DNA from: Thermoplasmata archaeon
GTDB taxonomy: Archaea; Thermoplasmatota; Thermoplasmata; Lutacidiplasmatales; UBA184
Direction: 5' to 3'
Length of the DNA stretch: 64,000 nucleotides
Assembly: GCA_022750055.1 (NCBI GenBank)
Contig: JAKIWL010000002.1
Location: 341,042-405,041, forward strand
Shown: positions 1-14,963 of the stretch, one piece after another
How the letters are laid out: the number at the start of each line of letters is the position of its first letter
How positions within the stretch are numbered: the stretch's first letter is position 1
Position numbers and translations under genes: made by a program
Notes under the pieces: generated by a model
Database searches by the model: none
What the model was told of the DNA's origin: nothing
What the model saw: only the letters and a program-made list of their open reading frames with translations

Positions 1-310
1 TCCCCCGGGAAGTAGTCCCAGGGACGCGCCCAAAGCGACGGGTCGGACCTCGGAAATCCGGACGAGCGCCGGCGACGGAAGAGGTGACCCCGAAGCCTCG
101 CCGACGGACCGCAGGCCGTCGCAGGGCTTCGCCCGTGACCGGAGCCTCCGCCGGGACCCCACCGCCGGATGTGCCGGCCCCCTCCCAGGCCGGTCCAGCT
201 CCTCCGCCGGAGCCGCGGACGCCAGCGCCTCCCCCCGGGACCCGCCGACACACGGCCCCCCCGTCGATTGCCGCGGCGGACCCGCCCCCGCCTGAGGCCG
301 AAGGCGAGCC

Positions 311-1078
311 GTGATCGACGTCCCCGAACGCGTCTCCACGGGGATTCCCGGTCTCGACCGGATGCTCGGGGGCGGCCTGTGGCCGGGACGCCCCTATCTC
401 CTGACCGGAGGCACGGGGAGCGGCAAGACCCTCTTCGGGATGCGGTTCCTCCTGGAGGGGCTCGCCCACGGCGAGTCGGTCCTACTCGTCGCCGTCGACG
501 AACCGCCGAACGAGATCCTCGAGAATGTTCGCTCCTTTGGCTGGGACCTGTCGTCGGTCCGGACCCTGGACGCGAACCCCGGAACCCGCGCGATCCGTCG
601 GATGGCGGACGTGCAGGAGATCCGGGCGATGGGGGATGTCAAGCAGATGCGGGACATCTCCGCCGAGAGCCGCAAGTCCCAGGGCGACGACGACATCTCG
701 ATCCAGACGATCCACCTGAAGCTGCGCCATCAAATGGGTCAGACGAACTTCACGCGGGTCCTCGTCGATTCGATCACCTCCATCCGTCGCTTCGCGATGA
801 AATCGAGCCACGACCCGCAGGCCGATCGGACGGAGGTCCAATCGCTGCTACGATTCTTGAGCGAGCGCGGCGCGACGACGATGATCACAGCGACCCCCGG
901 TAACCCTCTGGTCCTCTCCGCGGAGGAGATCCTCGCCCGCGGCGAGATCCTCCTGACGCGCAAGTGGATCGGGGACCGCTCGGTCCGACAGGTCAAGATC
1001 GTCCGGATGCGAGGCTCCGCCCACGACCCCGAACGACGGCCCTTCGCGATCACCCGTCAGGGAATCGTCGTCGGATGA
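311..1078 (+). CDS. KaiC-like RecA-superfamily ATPase (single KaiC/RadA-like domain)
   Basis: N-terminus STGIPGLDRMLGGGLWPGRPYLLTGGTGSGKT (Walker A) followed by a LLVAVDE Walker B-like motif; classic archaeal KaiC/COG0467 layout. GTG start at 311; stop overlaps the next start (ATGA at 1075-1078). Confidence 0.8.
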   Translation: MIDVPERVSTGIPGLDRMLGGGLWPGRPYLLTGGTGSGKTLFGMRFLLEGLAHGESVLLVAVDEPPNEILENVRSFGWDLSSVRTLDANPGTRAIRRMADVQEIRAMGDVKQMRDISAESRKSQGDDDISIQTIHLKLRHQMGQTNFTRVLVDSITSIRRFAMKSSHDPQADRTEVQSLLRFLSERGATTMITATPGNPLVLSAEEILARGEILLTRKWIGDRSVRQVKIVRMRGSAHDPERRPFAITRQGIVVG

Positions 1079-1578
1079 CGGACCCCATCCGCCGGCCGGC
1101 CCGGCCGACGACGGCGCCGCGTCGTTGGCTTGTGAAAGAGGAGCCGTCGCACTTCTCCTTCGCCGACCTGGAGCGTGCGGTTCGGACCGAATGGGATTCG
1201 GTCCACAACCCGCTTGCGCAGCGCAACCTTCGTTCGATGCGACGAGGAGAACCCGTGCTGTACTACCATACCGGCTCGGAGAGAGCCGTCGTCGGCATCG
1301 CGGAGGTCGCGGACGCCCCTCACCCGGACCCTGGGGATCCCCGGGGTGCCTGGGCGGTGGCGATCCGAGCGCGCCGACCGCTGCGACGTTCGGTCCCGCT
1401 CGAGCGGCTGAAGCGGGAGGCGGTGTTCGAAGGTTCCTCCCTCGTTCGGATCGGCCGTCTCTCCGTCGTCGAGATCACCGGCCCGCAGTGGGAGCGCGTC
1501 CTCGCGCTCGAACTCGACGGGGCCCCGGACCGGGCACGGAATCCTCAACCCCACGCGTCCGGCCGGCGGCGCAGATAG
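1075..1578 (+). CDS. EVE domain (PUA-like) protein
   Basis: WLVKEEPSHFSFADLER...EWDSVHNPLAQRNLRSMRRGEPVLYYHTGSERAVVGIAEV...GRLSVVEITGPQWERV matches the EVE/thymocyte-nuclear-protein fold signature. The ATG at 1075 overlaps the KaiC stop (translational coupling); the ORF track gives 964 as an upstream start, which would overlap KaiC by more than 100 nt. Confidence 0.72.
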   Translation: MTDPIRRPARPTTAPRRWLVKEEPSHFSFADLERAVRTEWDSVHNPLAQRNLRSMRRGEPVLYYHTGSERAVVGIAEVADAPHPDPGDPRGAWAVAIRARRPLRRSVPLERLKREAVFEGSSLVRIGRLSVVEITGPQWERVLALELDGAPDRARNPQPHASGRRRR

Positions 1579-2819
1579 CGCGAGGCTTCGGCCTCGTACC
1601 GGGGGTCGACGTACACGGCGGCCGGCCAGGGGTTCTTCGGGCGCAGCGCGATCTCCCGCCACAGGCCGGCCGAGCGGAACGGATATGTCACCCGGCCGTC
1701 CTCGAGGATCCCGACGGACGCCCAATCGGATCGTTCCGGACCCCCGTCCGACAGGCCCGATAGGTCTAGGAGTACCGACCCGGGCCTCGCTCCAATCGCC
1801 TGCGCGACCGCATCCTCGCGGGACCGCCGAGCCGCCGGAGCGCGGTCGAGGGAACGAAGCGTCGCCCGCGATTCGCTAGACAAGTGGCGCCAGCCGTGCA
1901 CGCGTTTGTACAAGCGGCGCTCCCGGAGCGCACGGACGATCCTTGCCGAGTGGCCCCCTGCCGACTCGAGCGCGACGAGGAGGTCGGCGTCGGTCTGCGA
2001 AAGCAACGGGCGCGCCGCGCTCGGATAGCCCGAGAGCCGTTCCACGGCGGCCTGGGCCATGACCTCGGCGCTGCGCACCGTCTTGTGATAGTAGACGGCC
2101 GAATACATCAGGGACCGGCCCACCACGAACCCCTCGACGGCGGTGCGCCCCTTCTCGGCGAACACCAAACGACCGGCCCGGACCTGGATCGTATCGAGGA
2201 GGCGGGAAGCGTCGATCGCACCGTGGGCCACGCCCGTGTAGTGGGCATCGCGCTGTAGGTAGTCGATGCGGTCGGCGTCGATCGGGCCGTGGAGCAGGGC
2301 CCGCAGGGTGCGGTTCGGCTCCCGCCGGGAGGGCGGGTCGATCAGGTCGGCGATCGCTCGCGGCTCAAGCCCGTGCCTCTCGAGGATCTCCGGGATTCGC
2401 GACGGAGTCGCCCGCGCGTCCCCCTCGCCCCGGTCCGTTCCGAGCACGATGTCCCGCGACCGACCTTCGTGGCTCCGACCGAGGCACTCGAGCATCGGTG
2501 AATCTAGCGTGTGCGACAGTGGAGGGTGGCCGAGGTCGTGCAAGAGGCCCCCGATCCCGACGAGCTCGGCGTCCTCGACACCCAGGTCGAGCGCCGTTGC
2601 CATCTGGCGTGCGACCCAGTACACCCCCAGGGAGTGCTCGAGGCGGGTGTGATTCGCCCCGGGAAAGACGAGGTGGGCGAGGCCGGTCTGCCGGATCCCC
2701 CAGAGCCGTTGGAAGGCGGGATCTCCGATGAGCTCGAGGGGAGCGACCGAGAGGGTGAGGGAGCCGTGGATCGGGTCGAAGATCGACTTCTGTCCGCGTG
2801 CTCGCCGCCGCCCCGTCAC
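1545..2819 (-). CDS. HD-domain metal-dependent phosphohydrolase (COG1078, dGTPase/SAMHD1-like)
   Basis: IFDPIHGSLTL...FQRLWGIRQTGLAHLVFPGANHTRLEHSLGVYW...LLHDLGHPPLSH...DADRIDYLQRDAHYTGV; HD motif and conserved YLxRD. Its C-terminus overlaps the EVE C-terminus convergently. Confidence 0.8.
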   Translation of the reverse strand: MTGRRRARGQKSIFDPIHGSLTLSVAPLELIGDPAFQRLWGIRQTGLAHLVFPGANHTRLEHSLGVYWVARQMATALDLGVEDAELVGIGGLLHDLGHPPLSHTLDSPMLECLGRSHEGRSRDIVLGTDRGEGDARATPSRIPEILERHGLEPRAIADLIDPPSRREPNRTLRALLHGPIDADRIDYLQRDAHYTGVAHGAIDASRLLDTIQVRAGRLVFAEKGRTAVEGFVVGRSLMYSAVYYHKTVRSAEVMAQAAVERLSGYPSAARPLLSQTDADLLVALESAGGHSARIVRALRERRLYKRVHGWRHLSSESRATLRSLDRAPAARRSREDAVAQAIGARPGSVLLDLSGLSDGGPERSDWASVGILEDGRVTYPFRSAGLWREIALRPKNPWPAAVYVDPRYEAEASRYLRRRPDAWG

Positions 2820-3030
2820 GCAGCCCCCACTCTTCGAAGGAGATTACGGGTTTGCTCGGTTCGGCCACGGGGAAACCGAGCCCCCAACGCGCCGGTCGCG
2901 GAGGGGTAGGGAGGGCGTCGAGCGCGATCCGTCGGTCCGGAGAGCCCCGACCGGAGCACGCCGCGTCCGTTGCCGGTCAAGAGGGCCCCGATCGCGTCAC
3001 GACCCACCGGTCGGGTGCATCCGCTCGCGA

Positions 3031-3040
3031 AGATATTTAT
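3031..3040 (+). promoter_or_regulatory. TATA-box-like AT island (AGATATTTAT) about 27-35 nt upstream of the ATG at 3066
   Basis: Only AT-rich octamer in a roughly 70% GC intergenic region; spacing fits an archaeal leaderless promoter. Confidence 0.35.
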
Positions 3041-3065: not shown

Positions 3066-6000
3066 ATGGCTAGTTCTCCCGCAGCCACGAACGAGCGGGG
3101 CCCCTCCGAGGTTCCGATCGATGGCGCCCGCCGATTGTTCCGAGCCTCCGAGGAGGCGGAGGCGGCCCAGCAACGGGACCGCTACCTCGAGCAGCTGAAG
3201 GCCTACCTCGCGTTTGTGGAGGAGCGCAAGTCCGACCTCGGCCCGAACGGTGCCGAGATCGCCCACCAGCTCGACGGCACCGCGATGGCGTTCTACCGCC
3301 TCGGCCAGAACGAGCTCGCCAGTCGGTCCATCGACGTCGGCCTGACCTTCGTCGCCTCTCAGGCCTCGCTGCTGCATCACAAGGCCCTGATCCTGCTCGC
3401 GGCGAATCGCGAGGTGACGCAGGTCCTTCCGTTGCTAGAGGAGGCCGTTCGGGTCGACCCGAACGACAAGGCGATCTGGGGAACCCTCGGGGACGCGCTC
3501 AAGCTTCTGGGTCGCCCGGCCGACGCGACCGAGGCCTACCTGAAGGCCCAGGAGCTGGATGCCACCTCGACCCAGTTCGTCGAGAGGGCCTTGCGGCTGA
3601 GCCCCGGTCACCCCGGTGCGCAGCGACTTTGCCTCCAACTCGCCAAGGCCCACGGCGGGACCGAACAGGCGCTTCGTGCGTGCGAGGCCCTGCTCACCAC
3701 CTCGCCGAACGATCCGGAGCTCCTCTTCGCGCGCGTCGACCTCCTCGCCCAACTCGGTCAGATCGGCCCGGCGCTCGACGCCGTGGCGCCGGCCCGCACG
3801 GCCCGTCCCGGGGACCCCCGCCTCGCGGTGATCGCCGGTCGCCTTCACTTGGCGAGCGGGCACACCAAGGACGCCCTCGAGGAGTTTCGACTCGCCGCCG
3901 AGTCCTCGGGCCGGCTCGAGCCGGCCGAACTGGCCGAGCTCGCTGACCGCATCGACGCCACGGGGGAGCCCACCGAACTGGCGGTCAGCGTCCGGCAGAC
4001 GCTGCTCGAGCGGGAACCTCGCAACCTCGCCAACCTGCAGGCGCTCCGACTGCTGGCCCAGCGGACGCGTCGATTCGACCTCGGGATCACGGCCTGCCAG
4101 AAGATCCTCGAGATCTCCCCGGGCAACCTCGAGGCGACCCGGGCTCTGGCCGAGTTCGAACTGACGTCGGGTCGGACCGACGAGGGGTTCGGAACCTACC
4201 GGACCCTGGTGCGGTCGAACCCGCACGAAGCGGGGGAGATCCGCAAGGCGGCGGACGCGGCCCGGACCGCCGGTCGCGACGAGATCTTCCGAGAGTTCGC
4301 CCAGGCGGCCCTCGATGCCGACCCAGGCGACCTCGCCACGCGCGAACAGCTCGCGAAATCGTTCGCCTCGGCCGGCGAGCGAGACCGCGCGCTCCTCCTC
4401 TTCGAGGGCCTGATCGAGGCCAACCCGAAGGAGACCCGCTACCTGTGGGAAACGAAGAAGCTACTGTCCGAGGTCGGCCGGACCGCCGACCTCCCCAAGA
4501 TCTTGGACCACCTGTATGAGGCGGATCCGACGAACACCCGGCTCGCCTACGAGCGCGGCGCAGTCTACCTGGGACTGGCCCGGTCCTGCGCGGCAGGTTC
4601 GCCGGAGCGACAGGCCGCGGCCCGGACGTCCGTCGCCTCCTACGAGCGGGCGTCGGCCGACGCCAAGCTCGCGGAGGAGAGCCTCGTCGGCCTCGCCATG
4701 GCGGCCCGGCTCGGAGGCGACCACGCGCGAGCGACCCAGGCCTACGAGGAGTTCCTCGCCAAGCCCGGCCACGCCGGTAACGCGACGGTACTGAAGGAAC
4801 TCGGCCAGGCCCGCTTCGACGCCGGGCGCTACGTCGAGGCCGACCACGCCTTCCAGCAGGCCCTCGGCCTCGGATTGGAAGACCCGGACCTTCTCTGGGG
4901 AGCGGCGGAGACCCTCTCGGCGCTCGGTCTGGACGGACGCGCGCTCCAGCTCGTGGAGATCCTCGCCCGTCGGGATCCGGAGAACGTGCTCTACCAGCGT
5001 CGCCGAGGTCAACTGCTCTTGCGGACCGCGCGGCTCTCCGAGGGCGTGACGATCCTGCGGGCCGCAGCGGAGAAGGCACCGGGTGATCCCCTGGTGCAGT
5101 TCGACGTGGCCGACGCCCTACGGGCGGCAGGGGCCTACGCGGACGCGGTCGAGTTCTATCGGCTGGGCCTCGAAGCGGACCCGGCGAGCCGCCCGGCCCG
5201 GTTGGCCCTCGCCGAGACGTTCAACCTCGCCGGCCGGTACAACGAGGCGGTCCCCGTCGTCGACGCGCTCCTGAACCAGGACCCCAACGACCTGTCGGCC
5301 TGGCGGATCCGAGCCGATGCGTGCCGATCCCTCGGGCGGACCTCGGACCTCGAGTACTCTCTCAAGGCGACCCTCCTTTTGGACCCCACCGATTCCTCGG
5401 CCCTCGTGGAGAAGTACCGCCTCCATCTCTCCCAGGGGGCGAAGGCCGAGGCGTTCGAGTGCCTGTCCGATTTCCTCGAAGCCGGCAACCCCGACGCGGG
5501 CGATCCGGCCCTCCTCCTCGAGGCGGGCGACCTCGCGGCCGAGCTCGGCAAGACGGAGGACGCGAACCGATTCTACGAACGGGCCCAGGAGATCGATCCG
5601 GCCCAGGCGCTGCCCATCGGGATCCGGCGTTCGCGACTGCGCCTGTCCGCCGGGCGACCCGACCTCGCCCTCGAGGTCCTCGAGGCCTCCACCAGGCTCG
5701 CTCCGAGCCCACCCCTCCGGGCCAAGGAGGTCGCGTTGCTGAGGGCGGAGATCCTGATGGCCCTGGAGCGACCCGCGGAGGCGGAGGCGGTCTACCGCAC
5801 CGCGCTCGCCGAGGACCCCCGGGCGATCCCGGTCCTCCTCGGACTCGGGCGCGCGCTCCTTGACCAGGGCAAGCACGCCGACGCGAAGGCGCTCCTCTCC
5901 GATGCGATCCCGCTCGGCCCCCCCGTCTCCGGACTTTACCAGCTCCTCGCGGAGGCCGAGACGGGACTCGGCTCCCTCCCGAGCGCGATGGAAGTGATCC

Positions 6001-7553
6001 ACCAGGGGGTCACGGCGCTTCCGGAGGCCACGGAGCTGTGGACTCGGCTCGGAGAGATCGCGATCGCGCGCGAGGATTGGAACGAAGCGGCCCGGGCCTT
6101 CCGGGAAGCGATCCAGCGGGACGCGGCTAACCCCGACCTCCTGATGCGGGCCGGCTTCGTCGCCGAGCGACGCGCCCAGGGAACGGAGGCCCTCGCCCTC
6201 TACGAGCGAGCGACCCAGGTGGCCCCGACGAACAAGTTCGCCTGGTCGAACCGGGGCCTCGCGCTCCTCGCCGGGGGCCGCCCGGATGAGGCGACCGCGA
6301 GCTTCGATCGGGCGCTCGCCCTCGATTCGGACTTCGACGCGGCCCGACAGGGCAAGAAGGCCGCGATGGAACGGACCCGGGAGGCCCAGGTCGCCCGGTT
6401 CGGTCGGGAAGCCCTACTCCTCGAGGCGCGCCTGCACCGATCGGTGACCCGCAACGACCTGTTCGTGACGCTCCATGTACCGTTCGATTTCCTCGAACCG
6501 GTCCTGGCAACGCTCTCGAAGGACCCGAAGGTCGACCTAGCGAGCCTCTCCGAGGAGGAGCTGCACGCCTTGGAGACGGCCTCCTGTCAGGTCATCACGG
6601 CCGCGCTCGAGCGGCGAACCGATGGGCTGGAGCGGCGGGGTTTCTCTCTCGCCGACGTCGCCGCCCTGAGCCCGACGAATCGCTCGCTCCCCGAGATCCA
6701 ACGGCTGTTCGGGTACCTACGGGCCGTTCTGGAGGTCGAGCTTAGGCCGGAGAACCTCCAGCTCGCCCCGGACGTGGAGGAGCTAGCCCGGCGCGCGCTC
6801 TTGATGCCGCCCGACCAACGAACGCTGTTCCAACTGGTCCGCAACCTGCACGTTGGCTTGTTCAAAGCGCGCCTGATCAAGGTCGTGGAATCCTCCGGTT
6901 CGGCCGCGCACGCCCCGATCGCTTCCCTCGACTTCGGCGCATTCGCTCCCGACGCGGGTCCGGCCGCTCCGGCCCTCCTGCCCCCCTCGGAGGACCCGGA
7001 CCTCTTTCCCCCGTCGACTTCGCCCCATTCGCCTCACGCAGGGACTCGGGAAGCCCCCCGACACGCCCCGGCCCCCCCGTCGGCCCCTGAGGCCGGCCCC
7101 GCTCGACCCATGGCGGGGCACGCTCGATGCGTCGGCTGCGGAGGACTCGCGTCGATCGTCCACACTTGTGGCGCTCCGGTGTGCGCGCACTGCATCGTCG
7201 AATTCGGTACCTGTCCAAAGTGCCGGCAGCCGGCGACGCTGCCCGGTCCGGCCTCCGAGGCGGGCCCCCCAGCCGAACCGTTGGAATCGTCGCCCCCCGC
7301 GCACATCGTTGTCACCCACACCCCGAGCGGGACCCTCCATGCGCTGCGCCAGGCGGTATCTCGCACGAGGTCGCCCCCGGCTCGAGCCCCTCCACCCCCG
7401 AAGCCGCCGAGTGAGCCGGAATCCAAGGGCCGGTCGCCTGCCGCCCATGAGCCGGCGGCCCGACCCCACGCCCCGCCCTCCAAGGAAGAAAGCGCCCCCC
7501 CGCCCCACCCGACCCGGCCCAAACCGGCGGCGGACGACGAGCCTCGTCTGTAG
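3066..7553 (+). CDS. Giant TPR-repeat protein with a C-terminal Cys4 zinc ribbon and proline-rich tail
   Basis: About 1100 aa of repeating 34-aa TPR-like units (motifs such as AxxxLGxxxxxLGRxxEAxxxYxxALxLDP recur at least 20 times). This is followed by a non-TPR region around aa 1130-1300, then CVGCGGLASIVHTCGAPVCAHCIVEFGTCPKCRQP (four CxxC pairs), then a P-rich tail. The ORF is open from 2970; ATG 3066 is preferred because of the upstream TATA. Confidence 0.75.
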   Translation: MASSPAATNERGPSEVPIDGARRLFRASEEAEAAQQRDRYLEQLKAYLAFVEERKSDLGPNGAEIAHQLDGTAMAFYRLGQNELASRSIDVGLTFVASQASLLHHKALILLAANREVTQVLPLLEEAVRVDPNDKAIWGTLGDALKLLGRPADATEAYLKAQELDATSTQFVERALRLSPGHPGAQRLCLQLAKAHGGTEQALRACEALLTTSPNDPELLFARVDLLAQLGQIGPALDAVAPARTARPGDPRLAVIAGRLHLASGHTKDALEEFRLAAESSGRLEPAELAELADRIDATGEPTELAVSVRQTLLEREPRNLANLQALRLLAQRTRRFDLGITACQKILEISPGNLEATRALAEFELTSGRTDEGFGTYRTLVRSNPHEAGEIRKAADAARTAGRDEIFREFAQAALDADPGDLATREQLAKSFASAGERDRALLLFEGLIEANPKETRYLWETKKLLSEVGRTADLPKILDHLYEADPTNTRLAYERGAVYLGLARSCAAGSPERQAAARTSVASYERASADAKLAEESLVGLAMAARLGGDHARATQAYEEFLAKPGHAGNATVLKELGQARFDAGRYVEADHAFQQALGLGLEDPDLLWGAAETLSALGLDGRALQLVEILARRDPENVLYQRRRGQLLLRTARLSEGVTILRAAAEKAPGDPLVQFDVADALRAAGAYADAVEFYRLGLEADPASRPARLALAETFNLAGRYNEAVPVVDALLNQDPNDLSAWRIRADACRSLGRTSDLEYSLKATLLLDPTDSSALVEKYRLHLSQGAKAEAFECLSDFLEAGNPDAGDPALLLEAGDLAAELGKTEDANRFYERAQEIDPAQALPIGIRRSRLRLSAGRPDLALEVLEASTRLAPSPPLRAKEVALLRAEILMALERPAEAEAVYRTALAEDPRAIPVLLGLGRALLDQGKHADAKALLSDAIPLGPPVSGLYQLLAEAETGLGSLPSAMEVIHQGVTALPEATELWTRLGEIAIAREDWNEAARAFREAIQRDAANPDLLMRAGFVAERRAQGTEALALYERATQVAPTNKFAWSNRGLALLAGGRPDEATASFDRALALDSDFDAARQGKKAAMERTREAQVARFGREALLLEARLHRSVTRNDLFVTLHVPFDFLEPVLATLSKDPKVDLASLSEEELHALETASCQVITAALERRTDGLERRGFSLADVAALSPTNRSLPEIQRLFGYLRAVLEVELRPENLQLAPDVEELARRALLMPPDQRTLFQLVRNLHVGLFKARLIKVVESSGSAAHAPIASLDFGAFAPDAGPAAPALLPPSEDPDLFPPSTSPHSPHAGTREAPRHAPAPPSAPEAGPARPMAGHARCVGCGGLASIVHTCGAPVCAHCIVEFGTCPKCRQPATLPGPASEAGPPAEPLESSPPAHIVVTHTPSGTLHALRQAVSRTRSPPARAPPPPKPPSEPESKGRSPAAHEPAARPHAPPSKEESAPPPHPTRPKPAADDEPRL

Positions 7554-7621
7554 GAATCCGGCGCGGACCGCAGGACCGGGCGCCGCCGTGAGTCGGCGGC
7601 GCACGAAGTATAATCCGATAT

Positions 7622-8164
7622 ATGGGATGGCCCTTATCGAGTCGTATGGCCCAAGCGACGCCGGCCGCCCCGAGCCTTCTCCGAGGGGCGCTGGCCATCG
7701 TCCTGGCGGCGATCGCAGCGATCGTCTTCCTACTGGTCTACCTCGGCCTACCGGGGAACGACCACGTCGGGGCGTTGTTGTCGATCGGGGTCCTTTCCCT
7801 CGTCTTCGCGCTGGTGACCTACTTCGGCCAATCCCTGAGCAGCAGCGCCGGTCCGATCGAGGCGGTGTCCTGGGGCTTTACCGGTCTCGGCTTCGGTCTC
7901 CTGCTCTTGACGCTCGGCTTCGCCCCCGCGTCAACGATGTCCTTCACCGGCCGTCTGCTGGACTTCCTGGTCGTCCTCATCGGACTTGCCCTTGTCATCG
8001 TGATCGCCGGTTGGCGGTGGCGGGGTCGGGCGTTGGACACGGCTCGCGCGGCAGAGCACACGGCCTGGACCCGTCGCCCACCCACGAACGCACTCGATTA
8101 CCCGGCCGCGGGCCCATCGACCTCCGGATCGACGGTCCCTCCGAAGGAGGGCGCGCCGCGATGA
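7622..8164 (+). CDS. Small integral membrane protein (about 4 TM helices)
   Basis: Hydrophobic segments ALAIVLAAIAAIVFLLVYLGL, LLSIGVLSLVFALVTYF, GFTGLGFGLLLLTLGF, LDFLVVLIGLALVIVIAGW. An alternative ATG at 7646 fits the TATA-like element at 7606-7614 better. The stop overlaps the next start (ATGA). Confidence 0.6.
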   Translation: MGWPLSSRMAQATPAAPSLLRGALAIVLAAIAAIVFLLVYLGLPGNDHVGALLSIGVLSLVFALVTYFGQSLSSSAGPIEAVSWGFTGLGFGLLLLTLGFAPASTMSFTGRLLDFLVVLIGLALVIVIAGWRWRGRALDTARAAEHTAWTRRPPTNALDYPAAGPSTSGSTVPPKEGAPR

Positions 8165-8859
8165 TGACCCCACCCCCTCCTCCGGCCGGTCCCTCCCCCC
8201 CCGGGAGCGGACCTCCGCCACCGCCGCCAATGACTTGCGCGAAGTGCGGCGCGACCGTGAGCCCGTCGGCCCAATTCTGCCCCACTTGCGGAGCCCCGAT
8301 CTCCGCGACTCAGGCAGCGGCCCCCGGGGCACCCGTTGACATCCGCACTCGCGTCGACCAGGATCGGGGGATCCTCAAGCGGCTTCAACTGTTGATCCCG
8401 GGATACCGCGGGTATCGGCAGGGGGAGGACCTCCGCGAGGCGGACAGCGTGCTCCGTCTCCAGGTCGCCGACAGGGTCCACTCTGCGACCGCCCTGCTTA
8501 CCCAGCGCCGCCAGGCCCTGGCGACCGCAGGCCGCTACGACACCCTGAACGACCTCGCGCTCGCGATCGCGGACCTGACCCGTCTCGAGGGCGAGATCCG
8601 GCACGCCGAGCAGGGTTACACTGGGATCTCCCCGGCGCTGCGGGTCTCGGTGACCGGCCAGGACCAGCTCTACGAATACGACTATGGATTCGTGCTCGCG
8701 GCGAACGACCTTGTCACGACCCTCTCCGGCCTCCCCGACCCGAACGCGAACCCGGCGTCCGTCCAGCAAGCGACCGAGACGGTCCGCGACATGGTCGCGC
8801 GACTCGAAAAGGCGTTCCAGGCGCGCCTCACCACCATCCAGCAGGTCCAGGTCCCGTAG
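8161..8859 (+). CDS. Zinc-ribbon protein with a C-terminal helical domain (N-terminal P-rich linker plus CxxC..CxxC)
   Basis: MMTPPPPPAGPSPPGSGPPPPPPMTCAKCGATVSPSAQFCPTCGAPI followed by about 175 aa of predicted helical sequence (RLQVADRVHSATALLTQRRQALATAGRYDTLNDLALAIADLTRLEGEIRHAE...). The long ORF-track ORF 7168..8859 is coding only from this start. Confidence 0.6.
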   Translation: MMTPPPPPAGPSPPGSGPPPPPPMTCAKCGATVSPSAQFCPTCGAPISATQAAAPGAPVDIRTRVDQDRGILKRLQLLIPGYRGYRQGEDLREADSVLRLQVADRVHSATALLTQRRQALATAGRYDTLNDLALAIADLTRLEGEIRHAEQGYTGISPALRVSVTGQDQLYEYDYGFVLAANDLVTTLSGLPDPNANPASVQQATETVRDMVARLEKAFQARLTTIQQVQVP

Positions 8860-8889
8860 AGACTCCAGGGGATCCGAAGGAAACATCCA

Positions 8890-10053
8890 ATGGTTACCAA
8901 CAACCCCATTCCGGCGAAGGGCGGCAGTCTGATCGGCGCGACGACCATAAACTGGGAGGACGCCTACAAGGGTGACAACGTCATGTGGCGCGTCCCCCGG
9001 AACATCCACTGGGGAGACAACGTCGTGGTCCGGGAGGACGAGACGGCGGTCTTCTTCCGCGACGGCAAGGTCCTTGCGTATCTCGACAAACCCGATCGAT
9101 ACGCCCTCACGAGCCTGAACACCCAACTCCTCGGGGGCCTGGTCCAGGCGCTGTCCGGGGCCCGGCAGGAGGCCGAGGTCTACTATCTGCAGCGACGCAC
9201 GTTCGATGGCAAGTTCGGGAGCCAGGAGCCGTACGTGTTCCGGGATCCGGACTTCGGCCTCGTGAGCCTCCGGGTGTTCGGCGACTACCGGTGGCGGGTC
9301 GCGGGACCGGACCTGTTCATCAATCAGTTCGTCGGCACGTTCGGCGCCGCGACGACCTCCGATGTGGAGGACCGCCTGAGGGACCAGATGGTGCTACTCA
9401 CCTACACGACCCTCGGCCAGCTCAAGGACCAGGGGATGCGCGTGACGGATCTCGCCATGAAGCTGACCACGATCGAGCAGGCGGTCCTGGGCCAAGCGCC
9501 GACGCACTTCAGCCAATTCGGCCTTGAGGTTCAGCAACTGCAGGGCCTCTCCGTGAACCTCCCCGACGAGGTGCAGAAGGCCGTCAACACGCGCTCCCAG
9601 CTGGGCGTCCTCGGCGTGAACTACATGCAATACCAGGCCGGTCAGGCGATGACGACCGCGGCGGCCAACACCTCCGGCGGGGCCGGAGCGTTCGCCGGCG
9701 CTGGAGTGGGCCTGGGAGCGGGGCTCGGCGTCGGATACGGCATGAGCGGGGCGATGATGGGCGCCTACGGCGCGAACACCGGCCCGTCCTCCCCCTGCCC
9801 GAAGTGCTCGACGATGGTTCCCGCCGGGGTCCGGTTCTGCCCGTCGTGCGGCAACGCGATGGGACCCGCCGGCGCGGCGCCGTCGGGTCCGCCCTGTCCG
9901 AAGTGCGGCAGCCCCACCGCCGCCGGGGCCAAGTTCTGCCCGAACTGCGGCGAGTCTCTCGTTCCCCCGCCCGGCAAGACCTGCCCCAAGTGCAACGCGG
10001 CCGTGGCGGGAAACGCCAAGTTCTGCCCGAGCTGCGGTAGCGCGATTCCGTAG
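8890..10053 (+). CDS. SPFH/Band-7-like protein of the YdjI/COG4260 ('virion core protein-like') family with three tandem C-terminal zinc ribbons
   Basis: N-terminal INWEDAYKGDNVMWRV...VVREDETAVFFRDGKV...FRDPDFGLVSLRVFGDYRWRVAGPDLFINQFVG...LPDEVQKAVNTRSQLGVLG..YMQYQAGQAM, a Gly-rich GAGVGLGAGLGVGYG stretch, then CPKCS..CPSCG, CPKCG..CPNCG, CPKCN..CPSCG. This is the architecture of Bacillus subtilis YdjI (pspA-ydjGHI operon). SD-like GAAGGA lies upstream of the ATG. Confidence 0.8.
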   Translation: MVTNNPIPAKGGSLIGATTINWEDAYKGDNVMWRVPRNIHWGDNVVVREDETAVFFRDGKVLAYLDKPDRYALTSLNTQLLGGLVQALSGARQEAEVYYLQRRTFDGKFGSQEPYVFRDPDFGLVSLRVFGDYRWRVAGPDLFINQFVGTFGAATTSDVEDRLRDQMVLLTYTTLGQLKDQGMRVTDLAMKLTTIEQAVLGQAPTHFSQFGLEVQQLQGLSVNLPDEVQKAVNTRSQLGVLGVNYMQYQAGQAMTTAAANTSGGAGAFAGAGVGLGAGLGVGYGMSGAMMGAYGANTGPSSPCPKCSTMVPAGVRFCPSCGNAMGPAGAAPSGPPCPKCGSPTAAGAKFCPNCGESLVPPPGKTCPKCNAAVAGNAKFCPSCGSAIP

Positions 10054-10074
10054 CGCGACGGACGGTCGGACCAC

Positions 10075-11067
10075 ATGAACTGTCCGAACTGCGGAGCGAC
10101 GCTCCCGGACGGAGCCCGGTTCTGCTACTCCTGCGGGCGCCCGCTCGGCGGCGGGGCCGCAGGAGGCATGCCGGCTCCGCCGCCCCCGCCGCCCCCACCC
10201 CCGACGAGCGCGCCCTCGGGGGGCGGGGCCGCGACGGCTCCCGTGAACTGTCCGAACTGCGGCGCCCCCCTGAAGCCGCTCTTCGGCGAGATGGTCATCA
10301 CCTGCGAGTACTGCGGAGCCTCCGTCACCCTCGGAGGGTCCGGCTGGAAGGAGATCAACAAGCATACCCTGCTCCTCCCGAAGGTCACCACCCCGGATCA
10401 GGCGCTCGCGACGGTCCAGAGGTTCCTCGACCAGGGATTCTTTCACCGCAAGGACTTCGAGGAATCCGAGGTCGTCGAGCAGAAGCTCTCCTTCGTCCCG
10501 TTCTGGATCGTGCCGACGGCCGCGACGACCTCTTTTACCTACACGGACGTGGCCGTCAGCGTCGGCAGCACGGTCGCGACGGTCGCGGCGGCCGAGCTAT
10601 TGGGGAGCGCCCTCGGCGGGGGCCGCCGGGGAGGATTCATTCCCATTCCCATGATGATGGGCTCTCCCGTGAACTCGACGCGCCAGGACTCGATCTCGGG
10701 CCAGTACGAGTTCCCGGTCGTCGCGGTCAAGAGCATGAGCGAGTACCAGCCCAAGGACTACAAGTTCCGGCTCGAGGACCGCACTTTCTTCGACCAGAAA
10801 GCGATCCCGAAGGGCTCCCCGGTCCTGAACGGGGACCTCGGCGAGGATGCTGCCCAGCACGCGGCCCGCGCCTTCGTCATGCAACTGCAGTCCGAGGCGG
10901 CCCACAAGAAGCACTCCATGGTGAGCCAGGTGAACACCCAAGTGGAGGTCTCCGAGAGCGAGCTCCTCCACGTGCCGGTGTGGTACTACGTGCTCAATCG
11001 GAAGGGAGTGAAGACGGCCGTGCTCATCGACTCCCACGCCGGCGAAGTGATCCGCACCGTCGGCTGA
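10075..11067 (+). CDS. Double zinc-ribbon protein with a C-terminal domain of unknown function (YdjG-like architecture)
   Basis: MNCPNCGATLPDGARFCYSCG, a P-rich linker (PPPPPPPPP), then NCPNCGAPL...CEYCGAS, then a roughly 230-aa globular region (FVPFWIV...VPVWYYVLNRKGVKTAVLIDSHAGEV). Confidence 0.7.
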   Translation: MNCPNCGATLPDGARFCYSCGRPLGGGAAGGMPAPPPPPPPPPTSAPSGGGAATAPVNCPNCGAPLKPLFGEMVITCEYCGASVTLGGSGWKEINKHTLLLPKVTTPDQALATVQRFLDQGFFHRKDFEESEVVEQKLSFVPFWIVPTAATTSFTYTDVAVSVGSTVATVAAAELLGSALGGGRRGGFIPIPMMMGSPVNSTRQDSISGQYEFPVVAVKSMSEYQPKDYKFRLEDRTFFDQKAIPKGSPVLNGDLGEDAAQHAARAFVMQLQSEAAHKKHSMVSQVNTQVEVSESELLHVPVWYYVLNRKGVKTAVLIDSHAGEVIRTVG

Positions 11068-14714: not shown

Positions 14715-14963
14715 CGCGGGGAGGGGGAATCTCCGGACGGCGGGAACCCCGCCGCCCCTTTGAACCCCCGAGGTGAAACCACCACTGGATTAGCAATCCA
14801 GCGCCTTACCGGGCTGGGCTATCCCCGCGCGGCGCGGCTGACCGCGTTCGGCCCTTTTAACCTGGCGGTGGGCGGCGTGCCCGCGACGGTCGCCCGTCCC
14901 GAGCGTTCCGATTCGCGACGAAGGTCTGATGAGCGGACGCCGTGCTCCCCCGACGAGGGAGCC

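What the first reader, a model, noticed from the sequence alone, without database searches (positions are those of the whole stretch)
311..2819. KaiC-like ATPase translationally coupled to an EVE (PUA-like modified-base reader) protein, divergent from an HD dNTPase-like gene
The KaiC-like ATPase stop and the EVE start overlap (ATGA at 1075-1078), implying a co-translated pair. EVE domains bind modified nucleobases (5mC/5hmC, modified RNA). In prokaryotes they are frequently the sensor module of restriction and other defence systems. KaiC-like ATPases are signal-transducing RecA-fold ATPases. The convergent, overlapping neighbour is a COG1078 HD phosphohydrolase; dGTPase/SAMHD1-like enzymes of this family are known anti-phage dNTP depleters. 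A KaiC-EVE pair next to an HD dNTPase is not a described system. It could represent a modified-nucleic-acid sensing or defence module.
Basis: partly seen in the sequence, partly recalled or inferred. Interest (0 to 1): 0.6.

Follow-up and report, generated by a model that had tools for sequence, protein, structure and literature searches.

The report
KaiC ATPases, EVE reader, HD enzyme
The three genes are real and correctly named, but they are tightly packed, vertically inherited chromosomal genes of a soil archaeon, not a defence system. The KaiC–EVE start/stop overlap is a recent quirk of one small clade.

Summary
Window 311-1078 encodes a KaiC-like ATPase, 1075-1578 an EVE protein (ATGA overlap), and 1545-2819 (minus strand) a SAMHD1/EF1143-type HD phosphohydrolase. 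HD is convergent with EVE, not divergent, and overlaps it by 34 nt.

The window edge hides a fourth gene. A 782-aa KaiC paralogue ends at 312-314 and overlaps the short KaiC start (GTGA).

In 80 related Thermoplasmata species the backbone is PGI | long KaiC > short KaiC > (EVE) < HD | TPR.
- EVE is present in 47 of 72 informative loci and was lost several times.
- It directly follows KaiC in only 35 loci.
- In 12 loci it is separated from KaiC by other genes: an opposite-strand glycosyltransferase in the three gaps read.
- It usually has its own BRE/TATA-like element about 27 nt upstream of its start.
- The 4-nt overlap exists only in the window and four close relatives.

Outside this order, 79 of 80 EVE homologue loci have no KaiC or HD nearby. 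PADLOC finds nothing meaningful and the neighbours are not defence genes.

Best reading: these are separate transcription units, and EVE was secondarily captured into the KaiC operon in this clade. A functional KaiC–EVE or EVE–HD link is not excluded but is unsupported. Interest is low.

The parts
1..314 (+). 3' end of a 782-aa long KaiC-like ATPase gene (N-terminal KaiC domain, long Pro-rich tail). The window edge cuts it off. Its stop TGA is at 312-314.
   Evidence: L081 6892-9240 = window -2034..314, Pfam PF06745. It is 36% identical to the short KaiC. It is conserved upstream of the short KaiC in every related locus with enough flank. An ATATAT box lies about 27-33 nt upstream of its ATG.
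311..1078 (+). Short single-domain KaiC-like RecA-fold ATPase (255 aa). Its GTG start overlaps the upstream stop (GTGA). Walker A is GGTGSGKT.
   Evidence: PF06745, 157 bits; best PDB matches are KaiC (E 1e-41) and PH0284 (2DR3); 65-94% identity across 80 species.
1075..1578 (+). Stand-alone EVE (PUA-like) protein, 167 aa, with a 16-aa N-terminal extension and a basic C-terminal tail. Its ATG overlaps the KaiC stop (ATGA).
   Evidence: PF01878, 103.7 bits; 2GBS E 3e-20. AF2 pLDDT 88; Foldseek matches 2GBS, 2EVE, 1ZCE and THYN1-5mC DNA (5J3E), TM 0.72-0.84; invariant W18, K21, E23, P24, W40, N45, Y64, H65.
1545..2819 (-). SAMHD1/EF1143-type HD phosphohydrolase (HD + HD_assoc_2), 424 aa, convergent with EVE.
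   Evidence: 2HEK E 2e-44, EF1143 (2O6I) E 4e-30, SAMHD1 about E 1e-19. Present at this position in 71 of 80 related loci.
1545..1578 (.). 34-nt convergent overlap of the EVE and HD 3' ends. The same DNA encodes the Arg-rich C-termini of both proteins.
   Evidence: In relatives the overlap is usually 70 or 77 nt (40 of 43 loci at 60 nt or more).
2843..2854 (-). Promoter-like element of HD (CAAACCCGTAAT), about 24-35 nt upstream of the GTG start.
   Evidence: Sequence. The position matches the AT-rich peak at -29 to -24 upstream of HD starts in 63 loci. Inference; not tested experimentally.
3066..7553 (+). 1495-aa TPR protein with a Cys-rich C-terminal region. It is a conserved downstream neighbour, listed as context only.

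Best explanation
The region is a compact, vertically inherited stretch of the core chromosome of a soil Thermoplasmata (Lutacidiplasmatales-type) archaeon. It contains separate units rather than one system.

1. An operon of two paralogous KaiC-like RecA-fold ATPases: a 782-aa form with a disordered Pro-rich tail, then the 255-aa form. It is driven by an ATATAT TATA box upstream of the long gene. The two proteins probably form a (hetero-)oligomeric ATPase of the archaeal KaiC-like signalling type (inferred).

2. A small stand-alone EVE protein of the type represented by Rpa0253, Atu2648 and THYN1. With its conserved pocket and basic tail it most likely binds a modified base, 5mC or similar, in nucleic acid (inferred from family membership). 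Ancestrally it is its own leaderless transcription unit, with a BRE/TATA-like element about 27 nt upstream of its start. In the window's small clade the 40-55 nt spacer and promoter were lost. The former spacer now encodes a 16-aa N-terminal extension, and EVE is expressed by read-through and termination-reinitiation at ATGA from the KaiC operon.

3. A convergent SAMHD1/EF1143-type HD enzyme, probably the housekeeping dNTP triphosphohydrolase, with its own promoter.

EVE stays between KaiC and HD because the whole segment is syntenic. Its 3' end is also interlocked with the HD 3' end. Neither fact implies that the three proteins work together.
For: Conserved backbone:
- PGI | long KaiC > short KaiC > (EVE) < HD | TPR is seen in nearly all of 80 species loci.
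- Flanking unrelated genes are as syntenic as the trio.

EVE is dispensable:
- It is present in 47 of 72 informative loci and absent in 25 where KaiC and HD remain.
- Absences map to several separate tips and clades on a KaiC+HD tree.

EVE is vertically inherited:
- The archaeal EVEs form one clade, 49 sequences against 79 other homologues.
- EVE pairwise identities track those of KaiC (r 0.66) and HD (r 0.69).

EVE is transcriptionally independent in most species:
- 37-56 nt spacers are common.
- Across 38 loci there is a conserved AT-rich peak at -28 to -24 and a GA-rich element at -35 to -32, at the same position as upstream of HD and TPR.
- In 12 loci other genes lie between KaiC and EVE. 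In the three gaps read (L009, L015, L084) this is an opposite-strand GT4 glycosyltransferase.

The overlap is clade-specific:
- It is found only in the window, L002, L003, L004 and L006.
- These form one clade.

No KaiC or HD association outside the order.

No defence signal, and no defence genes nearby.

EVE fold and pocket motifs match stand-alone EVE proteins and the THYN1-5mC DNA complex.
Against: - EVE has sat at exactly this spot since the origin of the order.
- In the window's clade it is genuinely operonic with KaiC, so a functional link acquired there cannot be excluded.
- The long (70-77 nt), conserved EVE/HD 3' overlap could mediate antisense cross-regulation.
- All three products touch nucleic-acid or nucleotide metabolism.
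- The nearest bacterial EVE homologues sit with DNA-repair genes, which fits a DNA-metabolism theme that includes HD.
- No expression, binding or activity data exist.
- Promoter and leaderless-transcript calls are positional inferences.
Confidence: 0.62

Rival explanations
1. EVE and the SAMHD1-like HD enzyme are a functional pair in DNA metabolism. EVE reads a modified or damaged base in DNA, and HD adjusts or sanitises the dNTP pool for repair synthesis. Their interlocked convergent 3' ends provide antisense co-regulation.
For: - EVE stays overlapped with the HD 3' end in 40 of 43 loci, including 9 of the 11 HD-containing loci where other genes separate it from KaiC.
- Bacterial homologues of this EVE lie next to Mug/TDG-like glycosylases (23 of 80 loci) or in LigD–Abhydrolase_11–EVE arrays (18 of 80).
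- The EVE model matches THYN1 bound to 5mC DNA.
Against: - Convergent genes are not co-transcribed.
- The adjacency represents a single evolutionary event within one order.
- No HD lies next to EVE in 79 of 80 metagenome loci.
- HD persists unchanged in 25 species that lost EVE.
- The overlap can be explained passively. The EVE reading frame runs on until the first stop on the antisense strand of a GC-rich gene, and it ends at two fixed points, 70 or 77 nt into HD, in most loci.
Confidence: 0.15
2. KaiC–EVE is a signalling module. EVE is an input or output adaptor that brings a modified RNA or DNA ligand to the two-KaiC ATPase hub.
For: - The 4-nt overlaps link long KaiC, short KaiC and EVE in the window.
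- EVE follows KaiC co-directionally in 35 of 72 species.
- KaiC-like ATPases are proposed signalling hubs in archaea (Makarova et al. 2017, own knowledge; the paper could not be read).
Against: - EVE has its own promoter-like element in most species.
- Other genes lie between KaiC and EVE in 12 species; in the three gaps read this is an opposite-strand glycosyltransferase.
- The KaiC pair is 65-94% conserved whether or not EVE is present.
- No KaiC lies near EVE outside the order.
- No paper in the library mentions both terms.
Confidence: 0.12
3. The cluster is an anti-phage or anti-MGE defence system. EVE senses modified invader DNA and activates KaiC and the dNTP-depleting HD.
For: - EVE domains are sensors in type IV restriction and toxin-antitoxin contexts (PMC7641849).
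- SAMHD1 is antiviral in humans (own knowledge).
- EVE shows patchy presence and absence.
Against: - PADLOC: no EVE hit; the KaiC and HD hits are marginal.
- The anti-phage dGTPase model scores 16 bits against a cut-off of 400.
- No nuclease, McrB, GNAT or PIN partner is present.
- The neighbours are PGI, TFIIB, a formyltransferase and TPR, and the flanks give no PADLOC hits.
- The genes are core and syntenic across 80 species, with no island or mobile-element signature.
- The EVE is most similar to the solved stand-alone EVE proteins; its best PDB match is Rpa0253 of the alpha-proteobacterium Rhodopseudomonas palustris.
Confidence: 0.03

Closest known systems
Stand-alone EVE proteins (PF01878): Rpa0253 (2GBS), Atu2648 (1ZCE), PSPTO5229 (2EVE), human THYN1 (5J3E, bound to 5mC DNA)
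   Same: - Single EVE domain of about 130 residues.
- Conserved WLxKxEP, W..V.N..A and YH(T/S)G motifs.
- The predicted fold superposes at TM 0.72-0.84, with rmsd 1.5 Å to 1ZCE.
   Different: - Archaeal, in a monophyletic order-specific clade about 47% identical to soil-bacterial homologues.
- The context differs from the TsaD-GpsA-YciI-EVE and ZapA-SsrS-EVE contexts described by Bell et al. 2020.
- The basic C-terminal tail is encoded antisense to the neighbouring HD gene.
- The ligand is unknown.
Archaeal single-domain KaiC-like ATPases (PH0284/2DR3, PH0186/2ZTS; NCBIfam TIGR03877 and TIGR03880)
   Same: One RecA-fold KaiC domain with an intact Walker A. Full-length alignment to PH0284.
   Different: - Scores are far below the curated cut-offs of every NCBIfam KaiC family (93 against 307; 91 against 249).
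- It always occurs as a tandem pair with a 670-820-aa paralogue that carries a disordered tail.
- No KaiA or KaiB partner is present.
SAMHD1 / EF1143 / Aq_1910 dNTP triphosphohydrolase-like HD proteins (COG1078 type)
   Same: HD plus HD_assoc_2 architecture. The H…HD…D metal motif is present. The best solved relatives are 2HEK, 2Q14, EF1143 and SAMHD1.
   Different: No SAM domain. Activity and allosteric regulation are untested. It is a core, syntenic gene rather than a defence-island gene.
EVE-containing defence proteins (EVE-McrB, EVE-HNH VcaM4I, PIN-GNAT-EVE) and anti-phage dGTPase
   Same: They share only the EVE reader domain or, for the dGTPase, the HD motif.
   Different: - No fused or adjacent nuclease, GTPase or toxin is present.
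- PADLOC and NCBIfam defence models are not met.
- The context is not a defence island.

Membership tests
EVE domain family (PF01878) | Sequence match above Pfam's gathering score | tested here: met
   103.7 bits against a cut-off of 23, covering profile positions 2-144 of 145.
EVE domain family (PF01878) | PUA-like beta-barrel fold shared with solved EVE proteins | tested here: met
   AF2 model with pLDDT 88.4. Foldseek top hits are 2GBS, 2EVE, 2AR1, THYN1 and 1ZCE, with probability 1.00 and TM 0.71-0.84.
EVE domain family (PF01878) | Binding of a modified base (5mC, 5hmC or other) in DNA or RNA | not testable with these tools
   Only the conservation of pocket-region motifs could be shown.
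KaiC/RecA-like ATPase (PF06745) | Sequence match above the gathering score, with a Walker A P-loop | tested here: met
   157 bits against a cut-off of 26.6. GGTGSGKT is present in the translation.
Circadian clock KaiC (NF006799 / TIGR02655) | Double KaiC domain, curated equivalog score, KaiA/KaiB partners | tested here: not met
   - Single domain of 255 aa.
- 132.7 bits against a cut-off of 408, and 76.6 against 546.
- No KaiA or KaiB Pfam family appears among the neighbours.
SAMHD1/EF1143-type HD dNTPase (COG1078 type) | HD domain plus HD_assoc_2 region; similarity to solved dNTPases | tested here: met
   PF01966 at 41 bits and PF19276 at 90 bits. 2HEK E 2e-44, EF1143 E 4e-30, SAMHD1 E 4e-20.
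SAMHD1/EF1143-type HD dNTPase (COG1078 type) | dNTP triphosphohydrolase activity | not testable with these tools
   This needs an enzyme assay.
Anti-phage dGTPase (NF041026 / PADLOC dGTPase) | Full-length match above the curated cut-off | tested here: not met
   NF041026 scores 16.3 bits against a cut-off of 400. The PADLOC dGTPase model scores 37.5 bits on residues 55-113 only.
Defence system or defence island | Known defence-protein models, defence or mobile neighbours, variable non-syntenic location | tested here: not met
   - No meaningful PADLOC hits in the trio or in the 10-kb flanks.
- The neighbours are PGI, TFIIB, a formyltransferase and TPR.
- The location is the same in 80 species.
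Conserved KaiC–EVE operon (functional module) | Co-directional adjacency without an intervening promoter or gene, kept across relatives and recurring in independent lineages | tested here: not met
   - 35 of 72 loci are adjacent, 12 are interrupted and 25 lack EVE.
- A separate promoter-like element is seen across 38 loci.
- The overlap occurs only in the window plus 4 loci.
- 79 of 80 homologue loci outside the order have no KaiC.

The most novel reading that the evidence does not exclude
The EVE reader is functionally tied to DNA metabolism. It marks modified or deaminated cytosine sites in DNA and is cross-regulated with the SAMHD1-like dNTPase through their conserved 70-77-nt convergent overlap. 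In this clade it is additionally wired to a two-KaiC ATPase hub. The same EVE subfamily sits beside Mug/TDG-like glycosylases and LigD in soil bacteria. That would point to an undescribed EVE-assisted DNA-repair role shared by bacteria and these archaea.
Probability: 0.12. Interest if true: 0.55.

Novelty: new member of a known kind. Interest (0 to 1): 0.2.

Why it matters
This mainly serves as a caution. A start/stop overlap plus suggestive domain names (EVE, KaiC, HD) looked like a new sensing or defence system. Comparison across 80 species shows ordinary core genes whose tight packing is lineage-specific.

Modest positive value:
- It documents a universal tandem pair of KaiC-like ATPases in Lutacidiplasmatales-type archaea.
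- It shows how a leaderless gene can be captured into an upstream operon, with the spacer turned into coding sequence.
- It gives two leads on the unknown role of housekeeping EVE proteins: a long conserved convergent overlap with a dNTPase gene, and recurrent Mug/LigD neighbours in bacteria.

Tried and rejected
- **PADLOC on the trio and on nine flanking proteins.** Only marginal hits: mad8 at 20 bits, dGTPase at 37 bits on the HD motif, BrxC at 17 bits. The defence reading was rejected.
- **KaiC as an archaeal RadA paralogue (aRadC/SSO2452).** 2W0M matches only residues 6-81 at E 4e-11, while KaiC proper matches at E 1e-41. Rejected.
- **Weak PAXNEB/Elp4 hit.** 22 bits against a cut-off of 28. 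Treated as generic P-loop similarity.
- **Internal promoter for the window's EVE inside the KaiC 3' end.** There is no AT-rich element at -28 to -24 from ATG 1075. Read-through expression is therefore preferred.
- **Makarova et al. 2017 KaiC-hub paper.** Not held in the library, so statements about it rest on my own knowledge.
- **Literature search for 'EVE domain' + 'KaiC'.** No papers. 'EVE domain' + 'glycosylase' gave nothing relevant.
- **A first bootstrapped tree script timed out.** It was redone with a faster distance routine.
Full report
**1. What is there**

The window comes from contig JAKIWN010000001.1 of assembly GCA_022750015.1, a soil Thermoplasmata MAG of the Lutacidiplasmatales type.

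| Window coordinates | Strand | Product | Evidence |
|---|---|---|---|
| 311-1078 | + | 255-aa single-domain KaiC-like ATPase | PF06745, 157 bits; Walker A GGTGSGKT |
| 1075-1578 | + | 167-aa EVE protein | PF01878, 103.7 bits |
| 1545-2819 | − | 424-aa HD + HD_assoc_2 protein | Nearest solved relatives Aq_1910 (2HEK), EF1143 and SAMHD1 |

- The ATGA at 1075-1078 is real.
- ATG 1075 is the only in-frame start that keeps the invariant WLVKEEP strand, apart from an upstream GTG at 964, inside the KaiC gene.
- An AlphaFold model of the EVE protein (pLDDT 88) superposes on the stand-alone EVE proteins 2GBS, 2EVE and 1ZCE. It also superposes on human THYN1 bound to 5mC DNA.

- HD is convergent with EVE, and their 3' ends overlap by 34 nt. 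It is not divergent.
- The window edge hides a fourth gene, a 782-aa protein with an N-terminal KaiC domain and a long Pro-rich tail.
  - Its TGA (312-314) overlaps the short KaiC's GTG (311-313).
  - The two KaiC proteins are paralogues, 36% identical.
  - The long gene is preceded by an ATATAT box ending about 26 nt before its ATG.

In this genome the transcription unit is therefore long KaiC, short KaiC, EVE, joined by two 4-nt overlaps.

**2. Comparison across relatives**

A scan of one genome per species returned 80 loci from Thermoplasmata MAGs with a short-KaiC orthologue, 65-94% identical.

tblastn with the window's proteins shows a conserved backbone: PGI (opposite strand) | long KaiC > short KaiC > (EVE) < HD | 1495-aa TPR protein.

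| Arrangement | Loci |
|---|---|
| EVE within 450 bp of KaiC and abutting HD | 35 |
| EVE present, but other gene(s) between KaiC and EVE | 12 |
| EVE absent while KaiC and HD are both present (21 of these with KaiC directly abutting HD) | 25 |
| Truncated or a different context | 8 |

- **Inserted genes.** The three KaiC–EVE gaps that were read (L009, L015, L084) hold a GT4 glycosyltransferase on the opposite strand. The same gene lies in the KaiC–HD gap of L040, an EVE-lacking locus, together with a large surface protein.
- **Losses.** On a KaiC+HD neighbour-joining tree the EVE-minus loci form two larger clades plus several isolated tips. This indicates repeated loss.
- **Vertical descent.** The archaeal EVEs are monophyletic against 79 other homologues. 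Their pairwise identities track those of KaiC (r = 0.66) and HD (r = 0.69). EVE therefore entered this position once, at the base of the order, and has since been inherited vertically or deleted.

**3. Is the translational coupling conserved?**

No.
- A 4-nt stop/start overlap is found only in the window and in L002, L003, L004 and L006. These form one clade, and even L001 within that clade has a 24-nt gap.
- Elsewhere EVE starts 37-56 nt after the KaiC stop.
- Across 38 loci anchored at the EVE start there is an AT-rich peak at -28 to -24, preceded by a GA-rich element at -35 to -32.
- That is the same position as the AT-rich peaks upstream of the HD and TPR genes. It is the geometry expected for an archaeal BRE/TATA promoter that drives a leaderless mRNA. 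This is an inference from position and from general knowledge of archaeal promoters.
- The window has no such element upstream of ATG 1075.
- Instead the window's EVE carries a 16-aa N-terminal extension, about as long as the spacer in other species.

The simplest history is that the spacer and promoter were lost in this clade and EVE was captured into the KaiC operon.

**4. Association outside the order**

- Four EVE homologues (45-48% identical) from other organisms lie next to unrelated genes. These include an OPT/beta-lactamase fusion, a DHH phosphoesterase and an Lhr helicase. None has KaiC or HD nearby.
- A metagenome scan with an EVE alignment gave 80 loci. Only one, another Lutacidiplasmatales-type contig, has KaiC, HD and TPR.
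- The KaiC–EVE and EVE–HD adjacencies are therefore a single lineage-specific arrangement. They give no independent guilt-by-association signal.

**5. Defence?**

- PADLOC gives nothing for EVE, 20 bits (mad8) for KaiC, and 37 bits on the HD motif only for HD.
- The NCBIfam anti-phage dGTPase model scores 16 bits against a cut-off of 400.
- The 10-kb flanks encode PGI, TFIIB, a formyltransferase, TPR, Band_7 and zinc-ribbon proteins, with no PADLOC hits.
- The genes are core and syntenic.
- The EVE is most similar to the solved stand-alone EVE proteins. Its best PDB match is Rpa0253 of the alpha-proteobacterium Rhodopseudomonas palustris.
- It has no fused or adjacent defence partner (nuclease, McrB, GNAT or PIN). 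That sets it apart from the fast-evolving, defence-associated EVE domains of Bell et al. 2020 (PMC7641849).

**6. Most likely explanation (confidence about 0.6)**

The region holds separate units packed tightly together:
- a two-KaiC ATPase operon, of unknown signalling or ATPase function;
- a dispensable stand-alone EVE reader of a modified base;
- a housekeeping SAMHD1-like HD enzyme.

What is shown: domain identities, gene order, overlaps, the presence/absence pattern and its phylogeny, the spacer motif, and the lack of association elsewhere.

What is inferred: promoter function, leaderless transcripts, hetero-oligomerisation of the KaiC pair, the EVE ligand and the HD activity.

**7. Rivals**

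- **An EVE–HD link (about 0.15).** This is suggested by a long convergent overlap. In 40 of 43 loci the overlap is at least 60 nt, with modes at 70 and 77 nt. It persists in 9 of the 11 HD-containing loci where other genes separate EVE from KaiC. The EVE reading frame ends at one of two fixed points inside the antisense of the conserved HD C-terminus, so the overlap may be passive. HD is retained unchanged where EVE is lost.
- **A KaiC–EVE signalling module (about 0.12).** This fits the window's operon, but not the promoter, the insertions or the losses.
- **Defence (about 0.03).** This has no positive evidence.

**8. Comparison with known systems and novelty**

Each protein is a new member of a known family.

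The arrangement has not been described. No paper in the library mentions both 'EVE domain' and 'KaiC', and Bell et al. do not list it. The evidence, however, does not support treating it as a system. Interest is low (0.2).

**9. Leads noticed on the way**

- In soil-metagenome homologues, mostly of unidentified organisms, this EVE subfamily is adjacent to a Mug/TDG-like mismatch glycosylase in 23 of 80 loci.
- It lies in LigD–Abhydrolase_11–EVE arrays in 18 of 80 loci.
- This DNA-repair flavour, together with the THYN1-5mC DNA structural match, makes DNA rather than tRNA a reasonable candidate target.

Noticed in passing
window 1-314 (+); L081 6892-9240: A 782-aa long KaiC-like paralogue (KaiC domain, helical linker, roughly 380-aa Pro-rich disordered tail) precedes the short KaiC with a GTGA overlap. 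The long/short KaiC tandem is conserved in every related locus with enough upstream flank.
   Followed up: yes
window 1545-1578; L001-L078 EVE/HD junctions: The convergent EVE and HD genes overlap by 60 nt or more in 40 of 43 species, with modes at 70 and 77 nt. The basic EVE tail (..ARKRGST or ..GARRRR) is encoded antisense to the conserved HD C-terminus (..PRFRAAA..RDP..LP). The overlap is unusually long and long-lived for a convergent pair.
   Followed up: partly
L091-L170 (metagenome loci with EVE homologues): The soil-metagenome homologues of this EVE sit next to a Mug/TDG-like mismatch DNA glycosylase in 23 of 80 loci, mostly divergent and 11-174 bp away. In 18 of 80 loci they lie directly downstream of an Abhydrolase_11 gene, and in 12 of those LigD lies further upstream. 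Bell et al. 2020 do not mention glycosylases or LigD in their main text.
   Followed up: partly
38 related loci, 50 nt upstream of EVE starts; window 2843-2854 (-) and about 3025-3040 (+): An AT-rich peak at about -28 to -24, with a GA-rich element at about -35 to -32, lies upstream of the EVE, HD and TPR start codons. This suggests BRE/TATA promoters and mostly leaderless mRNAs in this lineage.
   Followed up: partly
L009 9501-10583 (-), L015 5553-6653 (-), L040 8746-12791 (-), L084 3937-4968 (-): In one clade a GT4 glycosyltransferase on the opposite strand is inserted between the KaiC operon and EVE or HD. In L040 a 976-aa surface protein is inserted as well.
   Followed up: partly
window 14739-14828 (-): An Rfam tRNA hit of 90 nt (31 bits, just above the gathering score) is not called by ARAGORN. 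It may be an intron-containing archaeal tRNA.
   Followed up: no
window 3066-11067 (+): A 1495-aa TPR protein with a Cys-rich C-terminal region is followed by several double-zinc-ribbon (DZR) proteins and a Band_7-DZR protein. The TPR gene is conserved next to HD in nearly all relatives.
   Followed up: no
L070, L072, L077, L080: Four loci with a 65-67% identical short KaiC lack HD and TPR downstream. L020 and L080 come from the same MAG, so some genomes carry a second copy of the KaiC locus in another context.
   Followed up: no
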